Virus record (IMG/VR): IMGVR_UViG_2636415906_000002
Direction: 5' to 3' (one strand)
From: a virus
Lineage: Duplodnaviria; Heunggongvirae; Uroviricota; Caudoviricetes
Length of the DNA stretch: 38,857 nucleotides
In this document: piece after piece, positions 1 through 38,160 of the stretch
Layout of the letters: each line of letters starts with the position of its first letter
Position numbering within the stretch: the stretch's first letter is position 1
Notes under the pieces: generated by a model
Told to the model about the DNA's origin: nothing
Seen by the model: only the letters and a program-made list of their open reading frames with translations
Databases searched by the model: none
Position numbers and translations under genes: made by a program

Positions 1-893
1 TTTAATACCTCTTTGTTTACTGGGGTTAATATCTGAGATGGTAGTTCTGAAAGATTCTCTTGTTCAAGTATATGTTGAAAGCTTTTATTCATCATTATGA
101 TGTTAAAAATCTCATTTACTATTAGTAGGTTGGTTTTTATGAATTTTGAGTTGTTATAAACAGATTTATGTTCAGCGATACTATTTTCATAAAGCTCAAT
201 CAACTCCTCTGCAGTCATCCTTTTTGATGGTTTGTGATAATAAAATCCGGCTGCTTTTGCACCTTTATTCCCAACTGTTCTTTGATTTAGAATGTGTTTT
301 ATCTTTATAATGTCCCGACTTTTTATTAATTTTTTATCATATGCTTCGGTAAGAATATCTTGTGCTTCCTCAGTTTCACATCTTGCAAATTGCACTGCGA
401 GATACAGAGGCAAATTACCCCGTTCGACTGCTGAGAGAAGTTTATGCTCTCCCTTATCAAGTAGCATATTAATACTGCTCACCCAGTTCGATGAATATCC
501 AGTAATCTCACTTATTTCGGAGTCTGAAAGTCCTCTGATTTTCATGTCTTTAATCACCTGTAATAACTCATTAGAACGTGGTCTTCTCCTTGCAATGTTT
601 TCAACTAAACTCATAACGTAAGCATCTTCTTCTGATACATCTCTTATAATTGCTGGAATAATAGTTTCACCTAATGCAACGAGAGCCTCTATTCTCCCTT
701 GACCACAAATTAAAGCATATTTGAAATCGCCTTCATCAATAGCTCTTACGCTTATTGGCTTGCTTAATCCTCTTTTTTTTATGCTTTCCTTTATTTCTTC
801 ATGCACTACCTTATTTCTTGTTCGTGGGTTAAGAAATTTTATTTTTGCAATCTCAATTTGAATTATTGGGAATTCATTTTTTTCAGGCAGCAT
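1..893 (-). CDS. ParB/RepB-like N-terminal nuclease-domain protein (partial; C-terminus beyond window start)
   Basis: Manual reverse-complement translation from ATG 893..891 (RBS GAGGGA upstream) stays open to the window edge (about 297 codons); N-terminus IQIEIAKIKFLNPRTRNKVVHEEIKESIKKRGLSKPISVRAIDEGDFKYALICGQGRIEALVALGETIIPAIIRDVSEEDAYVMSLVENIARR fits the ParB/Srx fold with a GQGR arginine motif; AT-rich; start overlaps stop of upstream recombinase by 11 nt. Absent from ORF track because it has no in-window stop. Confidence 0.55.
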   Translation of the reverse strand, partial: MLPEKNEFPIIQIEIAKIKFLNPRTRNKVVHEEIKESIKKRGLSKPISVRAIDEGDFKYALICGQGRIEALVALGETIIPAIIRDVSEEDAYVMSLVENIARRRPRSNELLQVIKDMKIRGLSDSEISEITGYSSNWVSSINMLLDKGEHKLLSAVERGNLPLYLAVQFARCETEEAQDILTEAYDKKLIKSRDIIKIKHILNQRTVGNKGAKAAGFYYHKPSKRMTAEELIELYENSIAEHKSVYNNSKFIKTNLLIVNEIFNIIMMNKSFQHILEQENLSELPSQILTPVNKEVL

Positions 894-2439
894 ATAGTTC
901 CCTCACTTTCATGCGAGTAATAATTTGTAGAAGTTTATCAAGATTATCAAATCTATAGAGATCTAATCGAATGTTGTTTGTTTCCGTCATGCACATTTTA
1001 TTATATTCGTTTTCAATCTTTGGTATGATATAAAAATCAAGAGGTGAAATATTTTGTGAATTCATTCGTATAACAATTGTTATGTCTGCTTTCTGTGAGT
1101 TATCAAACCGGACTTTCCATCTAAGTTTACCTGATTTCATATGTATGCATTTAGTAACAAGGACGGAAATTAAAAACTCATCATTGATGTAAAGCATTGG
1201 GGCATATTTATACTCGTCTATATGACAGTTACTTTTTAAAATTTCACCCTTAAAATCCTCAATTATCTCTGAGTAAAATGATCTTAGTGCTTCATTTATT
1301 TTGAGATAGCTGTAATCATGTTCTGGCTTATAACCAATCAAAGTATATGCTCTTAAAAGACCACCAAATCGGGTTCTATAAACAGAAGATGAAGGGCCTG
1401 TATCATCTTCATCAATGATAAAGCCTGATAGTTTTCCATTAGATTCTAATTTTTGTTTTAGTTTTTCTAATAGATCTTCATTAGTCAAATGAATGGATCG
1501 GAGCTGAATTATTTCTTGAGCTTTATTGTATTTTTTCTTTGAAATAATAGGTTTATATGCCTTGTCACATCTAACCCATTCATGTTTGGGGTTTTTTACA
1601 AGCCTACTTTTTAATTTAGATGAGGTTTTGTTATATATGTTGTTTCCAATATATTTTTCATTTGTCAAAATTTGATGTATTTTTGCACGAGTCCATAATG
1701 TTCCATTTTCTGCAGGTATGTTCTGTTCATTTAATCTCTCAGCAATAATGAATTCTGGGACGTTATTATCTATAAAGAGATCATATATTCTATTTACAAT
1801 TTTTATTTCATTTTTTGGTCCCGGAATTAATATTACCCTATCTGTTTGAATACTCTTTCTTTTGCGGAAACTCAATATTTCTTTAGCTATGCCATTTTCG
1901 TCTACTAAAAGACGTCTCAGCCCATAACCAGCCATACCGCCTTGATGATAACCAAGCTTTATTAAATTTACTTGCCCTATAAATACCTTTTCAGATAGAT
2001 TCCTGCTGTGATATGCAGCACTAGATCTTTTTATATTCAGTATAACAGAGGACTCTAAAGGGAAATCTTTAGTGGGTATAGGTTCGGAACAATATATAAG
2101 ATCTACACCATTTCTCTCAAATAGAAAGGAATAATATGCCGCTTCATCACTATTTTGAAAACGACCAAAACGGCTCACATCATAAAATAATACAGCCTGT
2201 ATATCTATTTTCTTTTGTTCTACATCGCTAAGTAACTGCTGCAAAGAATGCCTGCCTACGATACTGACTCCGCTCTTACCTGCATCATCGTAGGTATAAG
2301 CGATTTCCATATTGTTCTTTTCAGCATAATCTTTGATATATTCGGACTGATTATGTAAAGAATATTGCTGATGGTCGGTAGACATCCTCAAGTACTGCGC
2401 GACCCTAACTCTATGATTTTTGTCATTTTCGCTAGCCAT
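883..2439 (-). CDS. large serine recombinase (resolvase-type catalytic domain + recombinase domain)
   Basis: 518-aa ORF; N-terminal VAQYLRMSTDHQ catalytic-serine motif and DDAGKSG...R pattern of resolvase domain, then GYHQGGMAGYGLRR recombinase-domain signature; strongly AT-rich. Confidence 0.7.
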   Translation of the reverse strand: MASENDKNHRVRVAQYLRMSTDHQQYSLHNQSEYIKDYAEKNNMEIAYTYDDAGKSGVSIVGRHSLQQLLSDVEQKKIDIQAVLFYDVSRFGRFQNSDEAAYYSFLFERNGVDLIYCSEPIPTKDFPLESSVILNIKRSSAAYHSRNLSEKVFIGQVNLIKLGYHQGGMAGYGLRRLLVDENGIAKEILSFRKRKSIQTDRVILIPGPKNEIKIVNRIYDLFIDNNVPEFIIAERLNEQNIPAENGTLWTRAKIHQILTNEKYIGNNIYNKTSSKLKSRLVKNPKHEWVRCDKAYKPIISKKKYNKAQEIIQLRSIHLTNEDLLEKLKQKLESNGKLSGFIIDEDDTGPSSSVYRTRFGGLLRAYTLIGYKPEHDYSYLKINEALRSFYSEIIEDFKGEILKSNCHIDEYKYAPMLYINDEFLISVLVTKCIHMKSGKLRWKVRFDNSQKADITIVIRMNSQNISPLDFYIIPKIENEYNKMCMTETNNIRLDLYRFDNLDKLLQIITRMKVRELYAA

Positions 2440-2609
2440 GCACGAAACCTCATGGATGATTCAATACAATGTAGTGGATAAAATTGATCAAATTTCAACC
2501 GAATTCAACTGTTTTATCATTGATTAGAGCGAATTTGGTAGATCTTCGAGGTGTATGATAATCGAGAAGAGATGTGAATTATTTAGCTGATATGACCGAC
2601 AGCTTTCGT

Positions 2610-2659
2610 TATGTGGACTCAATGTCCCCATTTGTAAATGGCTATGCTTAGTCCACATA
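2610..2659. promoter_or_regulatory. 10-bp perfect inverted repeat TATGTGGACT / AGTCCACATA with 30-bp spacer in the integrase - recombinase intergenic region
   Basis: read directly from sequence (2610..2619 and 2650..2659); lies upstream of the serine recombinase start. Confidence 0.3.
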
Positions 2660-2721
2660 GGTTAATGGTGTGATTATTAATTCTTTAACTAAATCAAGAT
2701 AGTTAATCCATCATGGGAGAG

Positions 2722-3951
2722 TTATGCGGCAATAACTTTGCATTTTTGAGACGAAACATAGTCACTCCACCATTGCATGAGAACCACCCGTTCAGTGAGA
2801 TACTCTGCACGATTGTAGGCTGCAATTATTTCATCTTTCTTCGAGTGGGCAAGGGCGGCTTCTAAGACATCAGTCCTAAACTTGCCAGACTCCTCAGCAG
2901 CCGTTCTAGCAATGGATCGCATACCGTGAGCTACAAGCTCACCTCCGAAACCCATACGGATTATGGCCGCATTAGCTGTTTGTTCATGCATGTGATTGAG
3001 TGGAGCTTTGATACTGGGGAACACCCACTCTCTATGCCCGCTGATGACTTTCATTAAATCCAAAACTCGCAAAGCTTCTTTGCTCAGTGGAACTTTGTGA
3101 GGCTTCTTCATTTTCATAAACTCCGCCGGGATGTTCCACATGCCAGTTTCAATATCAATATCTGACCATCTTGTGCGAACAGCTTCACCTGGGCGAACCC
3201 ATGTGAGAAGTTGCCACTCAATCAGTAGCCTTGTTTCCAAACGGATAGAAGCATTGTTTAGAGCAACCAAGAAGCGAGGGAGTTCGGAAGGGGGTAATGC
3301 TGGCATATTCTGTTTTTTTGGCTTGCTGAACCGTTGCCCCAGGTTGTCTGCCGGGTTGAATTCTATGAGTTCTTCTGTTGCTGCATAGCGGAAAATTTCA
3401 TTCAGGCGGGATATGATGCGGCGAAGTGTTTCAAGGACACCTCGTTTTTCTATGGGTTCTAAATGCTGTTTAAGCATTTTAGGGCGAATCTCCTTAATTG
3501 GGGTATCACCCAATGTGGAAAAGATATTTCTCTCTAGGCTTCGCCAGATGTCGTTAGCATGATCTTGGGAGATGCCTGACGTTTTGACTTTCTCATCAAG
3601 CCACTTCTTGGCTACTGCTTGAAATGTATGTTCCGTGGCATCTTTCAGTGCATTGGCTTTTTGGTTGTTATGAACTTGGGGGTCTATACCATTTGTAAGC
3701 AACGACAAGTATTCATCACGTAAAGCTCGTGCCTTCGCAAGTGTAAGGTGAGGATAGGTTCCTAAGCTCACCTTAGTTCGCTTTTTGGTCACAGGCACTG
3801 CATATCTGAAATACCAATTTTTCTTCCCTCCCTTCGCCAGGGGAGCGATTCGCAACAGCAAACCATCGCCGTCAAAAAGGTTAACCTCTTTTTCGGCAGG
3901 TTTGGTGCTTTTGATTTCAGTGTCAGTGAGCTTCTTAGCGATTTTGGCCAT
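2722..3951 (-). CDS. tyrosine integrase, P4/CP4-57 IntA family
   Basis: ORF 2722..4032; probable true start ATG at 3951 giving MAKIAKKLTDTEIK...FDGDGLLLRI...WYFRY, the typical N-terminus of P4-family integrases; C-terminal catalytic region (GMRSIARTAAEESG...AYNRAEYL); sits directly downstream of an ssrA 3-prime-end copy and terminator. Confidence 0.85.
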   Translation of the reverse strand: MAKIAKKLTDTEIKSTKPAEKEVNLFDGDGLLLRIAPLAKGGKKNWYFRYAVPVTKKRTKVSLGTYPHLTLAKARALRDEYLSLLTNGIDPQVHNNQKANALKDATEHTFQAVAKKWLDEKVKTSGISQDHANDIWRSLERNIFSTLGDTPIKEIRPKMLKQHLEPIEKRGVLETLRRIISRLNEIFRYAATEELIEFNPADNLGQRFSKPKKQNMPALPPSELPRFLVALNNASIRLETRLLIEWQLLTWVRPGEAVRTRWSDIDIETGMWNIPAEFMKMKKPHKVPLSKEALRVLDLMKVISGHREWVFPSIKAPLNHMHEQTANAAIIRMGFGGELVAHGMRSIARTAAEESGKFRTDVLEAALAHSKKDEIIAAYNRAEYLTERVVLMQWWSDYVSSQKCKVIAA

Positions 3952-4049
3952 GTTTGGGACCCTCGATTTTAGGACCCATCTTCGTGGGTCCCATTCAGGG
4001 TGCCATAACTCGTAGTTCTCAGCAATTCTCACTAGACTACAATAGACGT

Positions 4050-4082
4050 AAAAAAGCCCGCAGAGCTTGTGCTGTGCGGGCT
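4050..4082 (-). terminator. intrinsic terminator (ancestral ssrA-downstream hairpin, now left at attL)
   Basis: minus-strand AGCCCGCA - loop - TGCGGGCT followed by TTTTTT. Confidence 0.5.
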
Positions 4083-4113
4083 TAGTAGACTTTACTGAAC
4101 TTCAGTACATCAA

Positions 4114-4162
4114 TATTTGGTGGAGCTGGCGGGAGTTGAACCCGCGTCCGAAATTCCTACAT
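4114..4162. repeat. attL: 49-bp direct repeat (45 nt of ssrA 3-prime end + 4 nt), identical to 37794..37842
   Basis: TATTTGGTGGAGCTGGCGGGAGTTGAACCCGCGTCCGAAATTCCTACAT present at both positions; flanking bases diverge on both sides. Confidence 0.85.
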
Positions 4163-4247: not shown

Positions 4248-5294
4248 TTAATGTTCTGTCGCCAATCTGTCGCCATTGTAGGTCAACGAAGGTTGAGCCT
4301 TCCCTTTGTTTGTTACAATTTCATCAAAGATAGCTGGATTATTATCTTTCAGTAATCTTGCTAGTATAATGATTTGCCCAGACGAGCCATCATCCTTGAA
4401 TGAAAGGAAATTATCGGTAATATCAAGAATATCAATGGTAAATTTGAAGTAGGTTTCAATTGTATCGCCAAGTTCAATGCTGGACATGAAGTTAGTAATC
4501 ATTTCATATCCATCAAAGTATAAAGTTGCATGTTCATTTAACTCCATGGGAGTTAGGCAAAGCATTCGATTAAGTTCGGATAAGTGTTTTTCTATTGAAT
4601 GAAGAGATTGCATTTGACGGATTAAAACTTCGGCAAACTGAGAGCCACGATTAGATGAATGTATCTTCTCTAGGTTTTTTAGTATATCAACCCAGTGATT
4701 ATTTACTTCACGTATGTATTCTTTATCTGTATTTTTAGGCCGTCCCTTCTCTGGTGAGCTATTTATGAAAATATATCTATATAGATGTATTGGGTAGTTT
4801 ATTTTATAACTTATCTCTTTAGTACCATAATGACGTTCGCGTTTAATGGTTTTGTTAGGTAAATTGGTGAAATAATCAGTAACGAACTTTAGATGGCTAT
4901 AGTAGCTATCAGATAGATTCTTTTGCTTGGTTTCCTCAATTTGTCGGTTTGTTTGAACTGTGCGGTGTATGTTTGCTACGACAGCAACAAATGGTATGGA
5001 CAAAGAAAGTAAGGCGATAGGAAGCTTGCTAATTGCAATGAAATTATTAAAGCCCTCACTATCAAATTGAGGGGAATGTCCAAGCCAGGAAAATATACCA
5101 AAGTATATCGCTGAAAATACAGGAATCCTAAGTGATTGTTTAAATAAGTATTGACTTGTTAATGGCCTTTCATCCATGTTAAAGCCTTTTTTTGATACGC
5201 ATAGATATAATTCAAGGCATATATATAAAAAATATATTATGATAAGTAAGTACGATATCCATGGGTATTGTGGGATATAGTTATTAACAAGCAC
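4248..5294 (-). CDS. membrane-anchored protein of unknown function (att-proximal prophage cargo)
   Basis: 348-codon ORF with GTG at 5294 overlapping int stop by 11 nt (alternative ATG at 5177 gives 309 aa); 2-3 N-terminal hydrophobic helices then about 240-aa soluble domain with no motif I recognise; markedly AT-rich. Confidence 0.55.
   Translation of the reverse strand: MLVNNYIPQYPWISYLLIIIYFLYICLELYLCVSKKGFNMDERPLTSQYLFKQSLRIPVFSAIYFGIFSWLGHSPQFDSEGFNNFIAISKLPIALLSLSIPFVAVVANIHRTVQTNRQIEETKQKNLSDSYYSHLKFVTDYFTNLPNKTIKRERHYGTKEISYKINYPIHLYRYIFINSSPEKGRPKNTDKEYIREVNNHWVDILKNLEKIHSSNRGSQFAEVLIRQMQSLHSIEKHLSELNRMLCLTPMELNEHATLYFDGYEMITNFMSSIELGDTIETYFKFTIDILDITDNFLSFKDDGSSGQIIILARLLKDNNPAIFDEIVTNKGKAQPSLTYNGDRLATEH
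4256..4276. repeat. tandem CTGTCGCCA 9-mers (candidate integrase arm-type sites, P-arm side of attP)
   Basis: CTGTCGCCA at 4256..4264 and 4267..4275; same 9-mer recurs at 37730..37738 and inverted at 37702..37710 on the other side of the att core. Confidence 0.3.
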
Positions 5295-6324
5295 TTTCTA
5301 ATTTTCTCCATCCAAGGTTAGCAAGAGGATTTTTGGTTACAGCATCTTCCAGATGGTCGGGAGCGAAGTGGGCGTAAATCATTGTCATTTTTATATCGAC
5401 ATGGCCCAGAATATCGCGCAGCACCAGTATGTTTCCGCCATTCATCATAAAGTGACTTGCAAATGTATGTCGTAATACGTGTGTGCATTGCCCTTCTGGT
5501 AGCTCGATACCAGCTCGTTTTACCGCACGTTCAAAAGCTTTCCTACAAGGTGTAAATAATTTTCCCCTATTCTTAGGCAGTTCTTCATATAAATCCTTTG
5601 AAATAGGCACTGTTCGGTTTTTCTTTCCTTTAGTCTTGGTATAAGTGATACGGTATTTTGATACCTGATGACTCTGTAGGTTTTCGGCTTCGCTCCAGCG
5701 TGCGCCGGTGGCCAAGCATATTTTTGCAATCATCAGCAGACTGGGGCTTTGAGAATCAGCACAGGCATCCAGCAGACGTTTAATTTCTTCCGGGGTCAGG
5801 AACGCCAATTCACCCTCAGCAATTTTAAATGTTGGCAGCCCAGCAAGCGGGTTGGGGGCTGACCAGTGGCCCAGCTTTTTCAGTGTACCAAAAACAGATG
5901 ATAGGTTGCGCTGTTCAAGATTTACCGTGCGGGGCTTAACGGGCGACATAAGCGTGCCATCTTCATTTCGTACTTCACCTTTTAACCGTGCTTCGCGGTA
6001 TTTCGTAAACTCACCAGCTGTCAGTTCTGAGGCGATGGGATCGCCTAGACCATTACAGATAATTCTAAGTTTCGCCATGAGGCGCTTGGGGTCTGCGAGT
6101 GTTTGACCATACAGGGAATACCACAGCTCAATTAATTCTGATAGATGTCGCCGATCTTCCTTTTCCCCTAGCCATGGTTTTTTGTTCACTTCTTCCATTG
6201 TGAAGCTTTCAAACGCAATGGCTTCGCCTTTGGTAGCAAATTGCTTACGCACGCGCTTACCATTGCGTCCATTGGGATAGCACTCACACAACCATTTTCC
6301 GTTCGGCTGTTTTCTGATGGTCAT
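5284..6324 (-). CDS. int: P2/186-type tyrosine integrase
   Basis: 346 aa; LATGARWSEAENL ... HVLRHTFASHF ... IKMTMIYAHF catalytic R / HxxR / Y pattern; positioned next to attL and downstream of repressor as in P2. Confidence 0.9.
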   Translation of the reverse strand: MTIRKQPNGKWLCECYPNGRNGKRVRKQFATKGEAIAFESFTMEEVNKKPWLGEKEDRRHLSELIELWYSLYGQTLADPKRLMAKLRIICNGLGDPIASELTAGEFTKYREARLKGEVRNEDGTLMSPVKPRTVNLEQRNLSSVFGTLKKLGHWSAPNPLAGLPTFKIAEGELAFLTPEEIKRLLDACADSQSPSLLMIAKICLATGARWSEAENLQSHQVSKYRITYTKTKGKKNRTVPISKDLYEELPKNRGKLFTPCRKAFERAVKRAGIELPEGQCTHVLRHTFASHFMMNGGNILVLRDILGHVDIKMTMIYAHFAPDHLEDAVTKNPLANLGWRKLESAC

Positions 6325-37793: not shown

Positions 37794-37842
37794 TATTTGG
37801 TGGAGCTGGCGGGAGTTGAACCCGCGTCCGAAATTCCTACAT
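37794..37842. repeat. attR: 49-bp direct repeat overlapping the 3-prime end of intact ssrA
   Basis: identical to 4114..4162. Confidence 0.85.
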
Positions 37843-38160
37843 CCTCGGTACTACATGCTTAGTCAGTCTTTACATTCGCTTGCCAGCTGCGGACGGACAC
37901 GCCACTAACAAACTAGCCTGATTAAGTTTTAACGCTTCAACCCCAGGCAGGGCTTCCACGCGATCTCTTTTGGGTTTGACCTCTCTTGATCCCCGTCCTA
38001 AGAGCGGAGGCTAGGGAGAGAGGGCTCTAAGCAGGTTATTAAGCTGCTAAAGCGTAGTTTTCGTCGTTTGCGACTATTTTTTGCGGCTTTTTACGAGGCC
38101 AACCGCCCCTCGGCATGCACCTTGGGTTTCGCAAATCCCGTCGAATCCAGAATCAGCCCC
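37798..38160 (-). ncRNA. ssrA: tmRNA (SsrA), 363 nt
   Basis: reverse complement reads GGGGCUGAUUCUGGAUUCGACGGG ... tag-reading-frame region ... GGGUUCAACUCCCGCCAGCUCCACCA, matching enterobacterial tmRNA from memory. Confidence 0.95.

What the first reader, a model, noticed from the sequence alone, without database searches (positions are those of the whole stretch)
1..4113. Second, older ssrA island in tandem: IntA-type integrase with AT-rich large serine recombinase + ParB-like pair
Left of attL the ancestral ssrA 3-prime copy and terminator are followed by a P4/IntA-family integrase, the canonical CP4-57 arrangement, so the P2-like phage inserted between ssrA and a pre-existing island. That island then carries a 518-aa large serine recombinase whose stop overlaps the start of a ParB/RepB-like gene (GQGR motif) that runs off the window. 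Both genes are about 30 percent GC. A serine recombinase coupled to a ParB-like protein inside a tyrosine-integrase island is not a standard mobility set. It could be a nested element, a phase-variation or partition-like module, or part of a defence cassette continuing outside the window. A 10-bp inverted repeat (2610..2659) lies in the recombinase upstream region.
Basis: partly seen in the sequence, partly recalled or inferred. Interest (0 to 1): 0.5.

Follow-up and report, generated by a model that had tools for sequence, protein, structure and literature searches.

The report
Serine recombinase with two ParB partners
Next to the ssrA gene this E. coli carries a small three-gene cassette of unknown function (an unusual serine recombinase plus two ParB-like DNA-binding proteins) that is conserved in the same order across many bacterial phyla, sits where related islands carry anti-phage systems, and is present in the lab strain BL21.

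Summary
A decayed P4-type-integrase island sits at ssrA, and a P2-like prophage later inserted in front of it (perfect 49-bp repeat, 4114-4162 and 37794-37842).

The "recombinase + ParB pair" is a trio. The partial ORF is a 298-aa ParB_N/RepB protein that ends 4 nt beyond the window. A second 298-aa ParB paralog follows it.

- **Distribution.** The order LSR-ParB1-ParB2, with overlapping stops and starts, recurs in essentially all of 80 loci from Alpha-, Beta- and Gammaproteobacteria, Acidobacteria, Planctomycetes and Myxococcota. It is also present in 659 of 5,426 complete E. coli genomes, including B/BL21.
- **The recombinase.** It keeps the catalytic serine and the recombinase domain. It lacks the zinc-ribbon/coiled-coil domain and ends in a restriction-endonuclease-like (PD-(D/E)xK) fold.
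- **What is absent.** There is no ParA, no att-like flanking repeat, no conserved target and no copy-number expansion.
- **Context.** In Enterobacteriaceae the trio occupies the integrase-adjacent slot where sister islands carry Gabija-like or ThiF/JAB operons.
- **Prior knowledge.** It matches no PADLOC model, and I found no paper on it.

Best reading (about 0.4): an autonomous, horizontally exchanged conflict or defence cassette. Rivals are a self-mobile cassette (0.3) and a maintenance module (0.15). The 10-bp inverted repeat exists but is not conserved.

The parts
1..893 (-). ParB1: ParB_N + RepB-type protein. 297 of its 298 codons lie in the window. Its start overlaps the recombinase stop by 11 nt.
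   Evidence: Uninterrupted translation. Pfam ParB_N 1.5e-13 and RepB 8.5e-08. Full length is 298 aa in L001:19997-20893. The family profile best matches Spo0J 1vz0 (E 2e-18), then ParB, Noc and KorB. Family-invariant motifs are NPRxRN, CGQGR and ENxARR.
883..2439 (-). Atypical large serine recombinase, 518 aa. It comprises a catalytic domain, a recombinase domain, a helical region aligned to a homing-endonuclease-associated repeat, and a C-terminal PD-(D/E)xK-like domain.
2440..2721 (-). 282-bp upstream region that travels with the trio. Its GAGG ribosome-binding site precedes the ATG at 2439. No consensus sigma-70 promoter was called on this strand.
   Evidence: Homology to sister islands with integrases matching at 86-87% nucleotide identity stops at about 2709-2756, that is, at the integrase stop codon. 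It is conserved with the trio in the argW-island version. Promoter scan.
2611..2660 (.). Imperfect palindrome (24 + 2 + 24) with perfect 10-bp outer arms. It is probably not a conserved functional site.
   Evidence: (I5). The arms carry non-compensatory changes in the 300709 and E14 variants. A 20-nt-arm score of 14/20 lies within the shuffle range (mean 12.3, maximum 15).
2722..3951 (-). P4/IntA-type tyrosine integrase of the older ssrA island (the ORF is open to 4032).
   Evidence: Arm-DNA-bind_3, Phage_int_M and Phage_integrase. NF007246 444 bits. RefSeq CDS 22722-23951 in L001.
4054..4068 (-). Terminator-like hairpin just downstream of the duplicated ssrA 3' end.
4114..4162 (.). Duplicated ssrA 3' end, the att core of the P2-like prophage. 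It marks the junction between the prophage and the older island.
   Evidence: Perfect 49-bp direct repeat with 37794-37842. Partial tmRNA match. No third copy in the 24 kb held to the left of this copy in L001.

Best explanation
The recombinase and the ParB-like gene belong to a self-contained three-gene operon, LSR-ParB1-ParB2. In E. coli the module is about 3.65 kb. It runs from the integrase stop codon to about 48 bp past the ParB2 stop.

This operon is accessory cargo of the ssrA island. It is not the island's integration apparatus and not a partition apparatus.

I think it is most likely a genetic-conflict cassette: defence against phages or plasmids, or exclusion of competing mobile elements.

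The mechanism below is inferred, not shown.

1. The two ParB paralogs form a hetero-oligomeric, possibly nucleotide-gated, DNA-binding or clamping module.
2. ParB1 keeps the Spo0J/KorB-type N-domain, with a box-III EN motif and an HTH. ParB2 is degenerate.
3. That module marks or holds a DNA substrate.
4. The recombinase then breaks or rearranges the substrate with its conserved Ser-20 active site.
5. The recombinase's unusual C-terminal half (a homing-endonuclease-type repeat plus a PD-(D/E)xK-like domain) replaces the zinc-ribbon/coiled-coil that ordinary serine integrases use to read att sites and control direction.

Shown: gene content, order, translational coupling, domain architecture, wide conservation and genomic context.

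Inferred: the protein-protein partnership, the substrate and the biological role.
For: **A conserved functional unit.**

- The same order with overlapping stops and starts appears in essentially all 80 genome loci. Eleven of them have ParB2 missing, split or shortened (five with none called). In nine of those the contig ends there, one (L063) carries a split ParB2, and L071 and L024 are internally degraded.
- The full trio is also in 49 of 53 IMG/VR loci, on Agrobacterium pAtC58 and in a low-GC gut contig.
- The recombinase family holds 1,348 50%-identity clusters at E < 1e-30.
- A natural LSR-RepB fusion protein exists (P0175).
- ParB1 and ParB2 are paralogs.

**Cargo, not island backbone.**

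- Sister ssrA islands whose integrases match at 86-87% nucleotide identity carry a Gabija-like nuclease plus UvrD helicase (CT01), or a ThiF + MPN/JAB operon, directly after the integrase. Homology breaks at the integrase stop codon.
- In E. coli, Klebsiella and Enterobacter the trio is followed by type I R-M, NACHT, Hxs/TIGR04141, Mrr/McrA-like HNH or Gabija-like genes.

**Defence-island context in other phyla.** Among 124 flanking ORFs of 32 loci there are strong PADLOC hits: MADS mad3 (4 members), DUF1156 MTase/DUF3780, DrmD, BrxH, ZorD, PDC-S06/S28/S54 and type I/II/III methyltransferases.

**It does not behave like the element's integrase or a transposon.**

- There is one copy per E. coli genome, with at most two places. 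The only second location characterised is the argW-island version, 94-95% identical to the ssrA one.
- There are no flanking direct or inverted repeats.
- There is no conserved flanking gene.
- There is no general tRNA or tmRNA association.

**Composition and fold.** GC is about 30%, against about 46% for the adjacent integrase. The recombinase carries a nuclease-like fold.
Against: - The recombinase and ParB1 match no PADLOC model. ParB2 matches only through its ParB-like N-domain, to a methyltransferase model.
- No experiment or paper links the trio to any phenotype.
- E. coli B/BL21 carries an intact trio. From general knowledge, that strain is the classic permissive host for T phages and common plasmids. 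Any defence must therefore be narrow, silent or directed at something else.
- Mobile-element genes are themselves enriched in defence islands, so context alone cannot separate a defence system from a selfish cassette.
- A strictly conserved serine-recombinase active site is typical of mobility enzymes. It is not known in defence effectors.
- Flanks in many alphaproteobacterial loci are housekeeping genes such as ABC transporters and DNA polymerase A.
- A canonical PD-(D/E)xK catalytic triad is not evident.
Confidence: 0.4

Rival explanations
1. The trio is, or descends from, a compact self-mobile element. The recombinase excises and inserts the cassette, and the ParB proteins act as accessory factors for target choice, directionality or handling of the excised circle. 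The E. coli copies would be immobilised passengers of the ssrA and argW islands.
For: - Large serine recombinases are typically mobile-element integrases, and the catalytic residues here are invariant.
- The cassette is a discrete unit. Shared homology between loci repeatedly ends about 330-520 bp upstream of the recombinase and 125-220 bp after ParB2.
- A 93%-identical cassette sits in different flanks in Pseudotabrizicola and Paracoccus (L031 and L038).
- Several whole assembly contigs are about the size of the unit, 4-6 kb (L017, L032, L064, L070, L106).
- In beta/gamma-type loci a DUF3987 protein follows ParB2. From general knowledge, this domain family is associated with replication functions of P4-like elements.
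- Two related elements in one genome carry divergent trios (65% identity) beside an 83-90% identical backbone, as expected for integration or incompatibility modules.
- There is a precedent: Dehalococcoides ssrA islands have an integration module with a CcrB-like serine recombinase and a ParBc protein (PMC3146451).
Against: - There is no copy-number expansion. E. coli genomes have one copy and at most two places, all beside a tyrosine integrase or its remnant.
- The trio has no megablast match in the plasmid or phage collections.
- There are no terminal inverted or direct repeats.
- There is no conserved insertion target and no tRNA or tmRNA linkage outside Enterobacteriaceae.
- No empty site was found.
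- The recombinase lacks the zinc-ribbon/coiled-coil that known serine integrases use for att recognition and directionality.
- In predicted proviruses the trio lies at either edge in either orientation.
Confidence: 0.3
2. The trio is a maintenance module for its carrier (island, prophage or megaplasmid). It would combine a multimer- or tandem-array-resolving recombinase with ParB-type DNA-binding proteins that organise, silence or segregate the element. By analogy only, this resembles resolvase-containing stability operons such as RK2 parCBA, or KorB-type regulators.
For: - ParB1 is closest to Spo0J, ParB, Noc and KorB, with the N-domain and HTH aligned.
- Homologs occur on 67 plasmid records, mostly large rhizobial, Agrobacterium and Sphingobium replicons.
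- In many loci a small regulator gene is divergently transcribed from the recombinase, as in plasmid resolution operons.
- The trio sits at the integrase-proximal end of islands.
Against: - No ParA/Walker ATPase accompanies the ParBs in any locus.
- Sister islands of the same family lack the trio altogether, so it is not needed for the island life cycle.
- Many copies lie in chromosomes next to housekeeping genes.
- No conserved res- or parS-like repeats were found.
- The similarity to RK2 parCBA is architectural only. It rests on my own knowledge and was not tested.
Confidence: 0.15
3. The trio is a phase-variation switch. The recombinase inverts a nearby promoter-bearing segment, for example around the 2611-2660 palindrome, to control neighbouring genes.
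For: - Serine recombinases include DNA invertases. There is a weak NCBIfam match to the Mpi invertase catalytic domain.
- An imperfect palindrome lies upstream of the recombinase gene.
Against: - No pair of inverted repeats brackets any segment.
- 619 E. coli genomes carry at least 80% of the trio query. Every two-piece match among the 40 rows shown had an IS insertion rather than an inverted segment.
- The palindrome arms drift without compensation.
- The neighbours differ from locus to locus.
Confidence: 0.05

Closest known systems
Large serine recombinases / serine integrases (PhiC31, Bxb1, A118/LI, CcrB, TnpX)
   Same: It has the N-terminal resolvase catalytic domain with the conserved nucleophilic serine, plus the recombinase domain PF07508. 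The best structural matches over about 325 residues are serine integrase-DNA complexes (9dxd, 9iu2, 9rah). The best NCBIfam match is CcrB, far below its cut-off.
   Different: There is no zinc-ribbon/coiled-coil domain. The C-terminal 200 residues form a helical region (aligned to a homing-endonuclease-associated repeat in relatives) plus a PD-(D/E)xK-like beta domain. The gene is not at an element end next to an att site. It is always coupled to two ParB paralogs.
ParB / Spo0J / Noc / KorB CTP-dependent DNA clamps
   Same: The ParB1 profile aligns over the N-domain and HTH with Spo0J (E 2e-18), ParB, Noc and KorB. A box-I-like PR motif and the box-III EN motif are kept. ParB2 aligns with Noc (E 5e-10).
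   Different: There is no ParA partner and no identified parS. Box II is CGQGR in ParB1 and DGHLR in ParB2, instead of GERRxR. The C-terminal half is RepB-type (PF07506). Two paralogs are encoded in tandem and coupled to a recombinase.
Integration module of Dehalococcoides ssrA-specific genomic islands (DsiB/DsiA/ParBc/Mom; PMC3146451)
   Same: A roughly 540-aa serine recombinase and a ParB-domain protein are encoded together in an island at ssrA.
   Different: There the recombinase gene lies adjacent to attL with the ssrA direct repeat embedded in it, and it is proposed to be the island's integrase. It comes with a second small recombinase, a RecF-like protein, Mom and a tRNA-like locus. Here a tyrosine integrase lies between ssrA and the trio, none of those partners is present, and outside Enterobacteriaceae the trio is not linked to ssrA.
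Integrase-adjacent defence hotspots of P4-type-integrase islands and of P2/P4 elements
   Same: The trio occupies the slot directly after the integrase, where sister islands carry Gabija-like or ThiF/JAB operons. It is followed by R-M, NACHT, Hxs, Mrr or Gabija-like genes.
   Different: The trio itself matches no catalogued defence system, and no anti-phage activity has been shown.

Membership tests
Large serine recombinase (serine integrase) | N-terminal resolvase-type catalytic domain with nucleophilic serine and conserved Arg/Asp residues | tested here: met
   PF00239 7.7e-22. Y16, R18, S20, Q24, D87, R90 and R93 are invariant in 34 homologs.
Large serine recombinase (serine integrase) | Recombinase domain (PF07508) following the long alpha-E helix | tested here: met
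   PF07508 6e-22 over residues 210-312. Foldseek aligns about 325 columns to serine integrase structures.
Large serine recombinase (serine integrase) | Zinc-ribbon domain with embedded coiled-coil that reads att half-sites and sets directionality | tested here: not met
Large serine recombinase (serine integrase) | Gene at the end of its element next to attL or attR, with recognisable empty sites | tested here: not met
   In E. coli a tyrosine integrase separates it from ssrA. There are no flanking repeats, no conserved target and no empty site.
ParABS partition system | ParB with an N-terminal ParB/Srx domain and an HTH DNA-binding domain | tested here: met
   ParB_N and RepB Pfam hits. Profile match to Spo0J, ParB, Noc and KorB.
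ParABS partition system | Cognate ParA (Walker-type ATPase) encoded alongside | tested here: not met
   No ParA next to the trio in E. coli. No conserved additional gene was found in 80 loci, other than the small upstream regulators and DUF3987.
ParABS partition system | parS palindromes near the operon | tested here: inconclusive
   The only candidate is the 2611-2660 palindrome. It is not conserved and not above shuffles on a 20-nt-arm score.
ParABS partition system | GERRxR (box II) and ENLxR (box III) CTP-binding motifs | tested here: inconclusive
   ParB1 has CGQGR in place of GERR but keeps EN..R. ParB2 has DGHLR and no EN. Nucleotide binding is not testable here.
P4/IntA-type integrase island at ssrA (CP4-57-like) | P4-type tyrosine integrase immediately downstream of the ssrA 3' end | tested here: met
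   NF007246 444 bits. The integrase start (3951) lies 163-166 bp from the ssrA 3' end or its duplicated copy, in the window and in BL21.
P4/IntA-type integrase island at ssrA (CP4-57-like) | Distal direct repeat of the ssrA 3' end bounding the island | tested here: not met
   No third copy in the 24 kb held to the left of this copy in L001. The island is cut short by IS3 or IS1 before ileY/ygaQ.
Catalogued anti-phage defence systems (PADLOC-DB v2) | Proteins match the models of a listed system | tested here: not met
   No hit for the recombinase or ParB1. ParB2 hits only the ParB-like N-terminus of a methyltransferase model.
Serine DNA invertase phase-variation switch | Inverted recombination sites bracketing an invertible segment, with both orientations seen in populations | tested here: not met
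   No such repeats. The sampled E. coli matches are collinear or split only by IS insertions.
Dehalococcoides-type ssrA-GI integration module | Serine recombinase adjacent to attL with the ssrA direct repeat embedded in it, plus a small second recombinase, Mom and a tRNA-like locus | tested here: not met
   The module is described in PMC3146451. Here the ssrA repeat is 4114-4162, separated from the recombinase by the tyrosine integrase, and none of the partner genes is present.

The most novel reading that the evidence does not exclude
The LSR-ParB1-ParB2 operon is a previously unrecognised class of DNA-targeting conflict system. A heteromeric ParB-type clamp, possibly CTP-gated, would deliver a serine recombinase fused to a nuclease-fold domain onto invading or competing DNA.

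A more speculative variant is a recombinase platform that captures cargo next to itself. Two observations hint at this in the alphaproteobacterial branch:

- a conserved structured 3' RNA follows ParB2;
- in one locus (L013) a duplicated 205-nt tail brackets two defence-like genes.
Probability: 0.3. Interest if true: 0.85.

Novelty: new variant of a known kind. Interest (0 to 1): 0.62.

Why it matters
- **Scale.** The cassette is carried by about 11-12% of complete E. coli genomes, including B/BL21, and by Klebsiella, Enterobacter, Salmonella and Citrobacter. Recognisable relatives occur across at least five phyla. It is annotated only generically, and I found no study of it.
- **Recombinase biology.** If it is a defence or exclusion system, it would add a serine-recombinase effector and a ParA-less ParB pair to the defence repertoire.
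- **ParB biology.** It would also extend the biology of ParB clamps beyond segregation and gene silencing.
- **If it is a mobile element.** It would be a serine-recombinase element that reads DNA without the zinc-ribbon/coiled-coil. That is relevant to serine-integrase engineering.
- **Tractability.** Either way it can be tested directly in a standard lab strain.
- **Side product.** The associated 105-nt structured RNA is a candidate new RNA family.

Tried and rejected
1. **Ordinary partition locus.** Rejected: no ParA anywhere, and two ParB paralogs are coupled to a recombinase.
2. **The recombinase is the island's or the prophage's integrase.** Rejected for E. coli. The island has a P4-type integrase and the P2-like phage has its own at 5284-6324. 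In IMG/VR proviruses the trio lies at either edge in both orientations. I think this reflects boundary extension to an "integrase" hit.
3. **The inverted repeat at 2611-2660 is an att, parS or operator site.** Not supported: the arms drift without compensation, and the 20-nt-arm score lies within the shuffle range.
4. **Flanking terminal repeats in 62 loci.** None recur.
5. **A conserved insertion target.** None found. There is no tRNA or tmRNA linkage outside Enterobacteriaceae.
6. **An empty site in E. coli.**
   - The apparent trio-less genomes (MLI105, 3PT) are IS1 deletions.
   - The 800-bp downstream flank matched 594 genomes, and I did not find it joined directly to the integrase.
7. 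**The alphaproteobacterial 3' RNA motif in E. coli, pAtC58 and beta/gamma loci.** Absent.
8. **Rfam matches.** None for the motif or for the E. coli downstream stretch.
9. **Literature.** Seven searches found no description of the trio.
10. **Megablast of the trio against plasmids and phages.** No match. Only distant protein-level homologs were found.

Full report
**1. What is in the window**

ARAGORN finds the intact tmRNA gene at 37798-38160 on the minus strand. A perfect 49-bp copy of its 3' end lies at 4114-4162 and again at 37794-37842. The P2-like prophage therefore occupies the 33.7 kb between these copies. Its own tyrosine integrase is at 5284-6324.

Left of the 4114-4162 copy there is a terminator-like hairpin at 4054-4068. 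Next comes a P4/IntA-type tyrosine integrase. Its ORF is 2722-4032, with a likely start at 3951. It has Arm-DNA-bind_3, Phage_int_M and Phage_integrase domains and scores 444 bits against NF007246.

In E. coli genomes without the prophage, such as BL21 and YD786, ssrA directly abuts this same integrase. No third copy of the ssrA core lies in the 24 kb held to its left in the 99.9%-identical genome ECCNB20-2. There the island is cut short by IS3 before ileY and ygaQ. It is an old, decayed island.

**2. The pair is a trio**

- The 518-aa ORF at 883-2439 (-) has Resolvase and Recombinase Pfam domains.
- The next ORF starts at 893, overlapping the recombinase stop by 11 nt, and is open to window position 1.
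- In ECCNB20-2 this ORF is a 298-aa ParB_N + RepB protein that ends 4 nt beyond the window.
- A second 298-aa ParB_N/RepB protein follows it, again with overlapping stop and start.
- Profile comparison shows that the two are paralogs (hhalign probability 97.4%, 19% identity).
- GC is about 0.28-0.38 across the trio and 0.43-0.48 in the integrase.

**3. Distribution in E. coli and relatives**

The trio region matches 659 of 5,426 complete E. coli genomes, and 619 of them carry at least 80% of it. All matches are chromosomal, with one place per genome as a rule and at most two. Carriers include E. coli B, BL21 and their derivatives.

This integrase allele is almost always coupled to the trio (646 of 697 genomes). 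A version 94-95% identical sits in an argW island next to an integrase remnant.

Near-identical proteins occur in Klebsiella, Enterobacter, Salmonella, Citrobacter and Cronobacter. In the Klebsiella and Enterobacter examples the arrangement is again ssrA-integrase-trio. Megablast finds nothing in the plasmid or phage collections.

**4. Limits of the E. coli module**

- Sister ssrA islands, whose integrase sequence matches at 86-87% nucleotide identity, lose homology at about window 2709-2756, which is the integrase stop codon.
- The ssrA and argW versions diverge about 48 bp after the ParB2 stop.
- The module is therefore about 3.65 kb: 282 bp upstream, the three genes, and a short tail.
- The apparent trio-less genomes with the same integrase are IS1 deletions.

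**5. Conservation across phyla**

An exhaustive search of 50%-identity representatives gave 1,348 clusters at E < 1e-30. Most are full-length proteins of about 520 aa at 35-46% identity.

A scan of one genome per species returned 80 loci from Alpha-, Beta- and Gammaproteobacteria, Acidobacteria, Planctomycetes, Myxococcota and others.

- A recombinase followed by ParB1 is present in all 80.
- ParB2 is missing, split or shortened in eleven of them (five with none called).
  - In nine of the eleven the contig ends at that point.
  - L063 carries a split ParB2.
  - Only L071 and L024 are internally degraded.

The same full trio is in 49 of 53 IMG/VR loci. It is also on Agrobacterium fabrum pAtC58, between an AbiEii toxin-antitoxin pair and a Fic gene, and in a low-GC gut virome contig.

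Companions vary by clade:

- A divergently transcribed HTH-like protein of about 120 aa is found in 37 loci.
- A co-directional CxxC-rich basic protein is found in 12 loci.
- In several beta/gamma-type loci a DUF3987 protein follows ParB2.

E. coli has none of these.

**6. The recombinase is atypical**

Y16, R18, S20, Q24, D87, R90 and R93 are invariant in 34 diverse homologs. The serine-recombinase chemistry is therefore under selection.

The AF2 model is confident (pLDDT 86.8). Foldseek aligns only about 325 residues to serine integrase structures such as 9dxd, Bxb1 9iu2 and PhiC31 9rah. There is no zinc-ribbon Pfam hit.

- matches to RecU, to the Eco15I N-domain and to many type II restriction enzymes.

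Residues about 318-370 carry the family motif RFGxLxxAYxLIGY. They align to the stretch that Pfam calls the "homing endonuclease associated repeat" (PF18780) in relatives.

Family-conserved residues in the beta domain are W441, D452, R458 and D468. I could not recognise a canonical D...(D/E)xK triad, so nuclease activity is uncertain.

**7. The ParB proteins**

The ParB1 family profile best matches Spo0J (E 2e-18), then ParB, Noc and KorB, across the N-domain and the HTH. Its invariant motifs are NPRxRN, CGQGR (aligned to GERR) and ENxARR (aligned to ENLQR).

ParB2 best matches Noc (E 5e-10). It has LLDGHLR and lacks the EN motif.

No ParA-like gene accompanies them in any locus. One representative protein (P0175, 773 aa) fuses the recombinase with a RepB-type domain. 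This weakly suggests a physical partnership, although a sequencing frameshift could produce the same fusion.

**8. Context**

In sister ssrA islands the slot right after the integrase holds one of two things:

- a Gabija-like ATP-dependent nuclease plus UvrD helicase (CT01);
- a ThiF + MPN/JAB operon.

Where the trio is present, it is followed by one of these:

- type I R-M;
- NACHT + RelA/SpoT;
- Hxs/TIGR04141 and AAA + RloB;
- Mrr and McrA-like HNH genes;
- a Gabija-like pair.

These islands also carry a relaxase.

Outside Enterobacteriaceae, 124 flanking ORFs from 32 loci gave strong PADLOC hits: MADS mad3 (4 members), DUF1156 MTase/DUF3780, DrmD, BrxH, ZorD, PDC-S06/S28/S54 and several methyltransferases. 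Pfam on the same set also shows ABC transporters, DNA polymerase A and other housekeeping genes.

The trio itself matches no PADLOC system.

**9. Tests for mobility or inversion**

- No direct or inverted repeats recur between the cassette's two flanks in 62 loci.
- No flanking gene family is shared.
- tRNA and tmRNA genes are not generally nearby.
- The sampled E. coli matches are collinear, or split only by IS insertions.
- The 10-bp inverted repeat at 2611-2620 and 2651-2660 is real, but its arms change without compensation in close variants.

Other observations point the opposite way:

- Shared homology between loci ends at recurrent positions, about 330-520 bp upstream and 125-220 bp downstream.
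- A 93%-identical cassette lies in different flanks in two genera.
- Several contigs are about cassette-sized.
- Two related elements in one genome carry 65%-identical trios beside an 83-90% identical backbone.

These facts fit a unit of horizontal exchange. They do not show that it moves itself.

**10. Interpretation**

The trio is an autonomous, widely exchanged operon. It combines a catalytically conserved but architecturally unusual serine recombinase with two ParA-less ParB paralogs.

It is not the integration system of this island and not an ordinary partition locus. Its position, neighbours, single-copy state and composition are those of defence-island cargo. I therefore rank a conflict or defence role first, at about 0.4.

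A self-mobile cassette comes second (about 0.3). A carrier-maintenance module comes third (about 0.15), and a phase switch is unlikely (about 0.05).

One caveat rests on general knowledge. E. coli B carries an intact trio yet is the classic permissive host for T phages and plasmids.

Seven literature searches found no description of the trio. The nearest precedent is the Dehalococcoides ssrA-island integration module, which has a CcrB-like serine recombinase and a ParBc protein (PMC3146451). It differs in gene set and in its position relative to att.

**11. Side finding: a candidate new RNA**

In an alphaproteobacterial branch, a conserved GC-rich element of about 105 nt follows ParB2 on the coding strand. 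It was found in about 42 of the 80 genome loci and 17 of 54 viral loci.

- It has 27 predicted pairs, and 97.9% of cells are paired.
- 57 cells carry double changes, against 14.9 +/- 2.9 in shuffles, and slid controls are far lower.
- There are many G-U pairs on this strand only.
- It has no Rfam match.
- It is absent from E. coli.

Noticed in passing
L075:11370-11478 (+), L058:5398-5506 (+) and about 57 other loci; absent from the window: A conserved GC-rich structured element of about 105 nt lies 3-75 nt after the ParB2 stop in an alphaproteobacterial branch. It has five helices, 9 pairs with compensatory changes and strand-specific G-U pairs, and no Rfam 15 match. It is a candidate new RNA motif in the operon's 3' UTR.
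   Followed up: partly
L013:11336-11539 and L013:16369-16572: The roughly 205-nt tail (RNA motif plus hairpin) is duplicated 5 kb downstream in Ruegeria conchae. The two copies bracket a 1162-aa ORF (with what I read as PLD-type and helicase-type motifs) and an AT-rich 291-aa ORF. The 90%-identical Roseovarius locus L028 lacks the second gene and the second copy. This could be cargo capture at the tail or a remnant of a second element. It is a single case.
   Followed up: partly
window 4248-5294 (-): A 348-aa hypothetical protein lies between the P2-like integrase and the att site. It has a weak PADLOC hit to a 2TM effector model (E 8e-05). In strain 300709 the same slot holds an annotated anti-phage dCTP deaminase. 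It is probably P2 hotspot cargo.
   Followed up: no
L005:12990-14104 (just left of the window's position 1 region in ssrA-type islands): An AT-rich stretch of about 1.1 kb with no annotated gene, no ORF over 73 aa and no Rfam hit lies downstream of ParB2. Its proximal 0.8 kb, used as the query, matches 594 E. coli genomes. Its function is unknown; it may be a decayed gene or non-coding.
   Followed up: partly
L009-L088, upstream of the recombinase gene; L099:6532-6939 (-); L104:4258-4773 (+): There are two alternative small upstream genes. One is a divergent protein of about 120-170 aa with a WTGxSERTxxNW motif (winged HTH in the gut contig; 37 loci). The other is a co-directional CxxC...C..C basic protein of about 140 aa (12 loci). 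Several loci of the second type also have a DUF3987 gene right after ParB2. E. coli lacks all three.
   Followed up: partly
P0121, P0122, P0126, P0243 (proteins): Relatives of 850-1057 aa contain two tandem recombinase units joined through a PF18780 homing-endonuclease-associated repeat. P0175 fuses a recombinase with a RepB-type domain.
   Followed up: no
L138 and L168 (two predicted proviruses of IMG genome 2534681903): Two related elements in one genome have trios only about 65% identical. The sequence from the RNA motif onward is 83-90% identical, so the trio is the diverged module of otherwise similar elements.
   Followed up: no
L105:10547-11442 (Enterobacter asburiae): ParB1 is split into 42-aa and 205-aa fragments while the recombinase and ParB2 are intact. 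This is an example of decay of the trio.
   Followed up: no
L003:2914-7654 (E. coli E14 argW island): Two adjacent tyrosine recombinase genes and a 668-aa hypothetical gene have overlapping ends, inside the same island array that carries the argW copy of the trio. This is a separate multi-recombinase element and was not examined.
   Followed up: no
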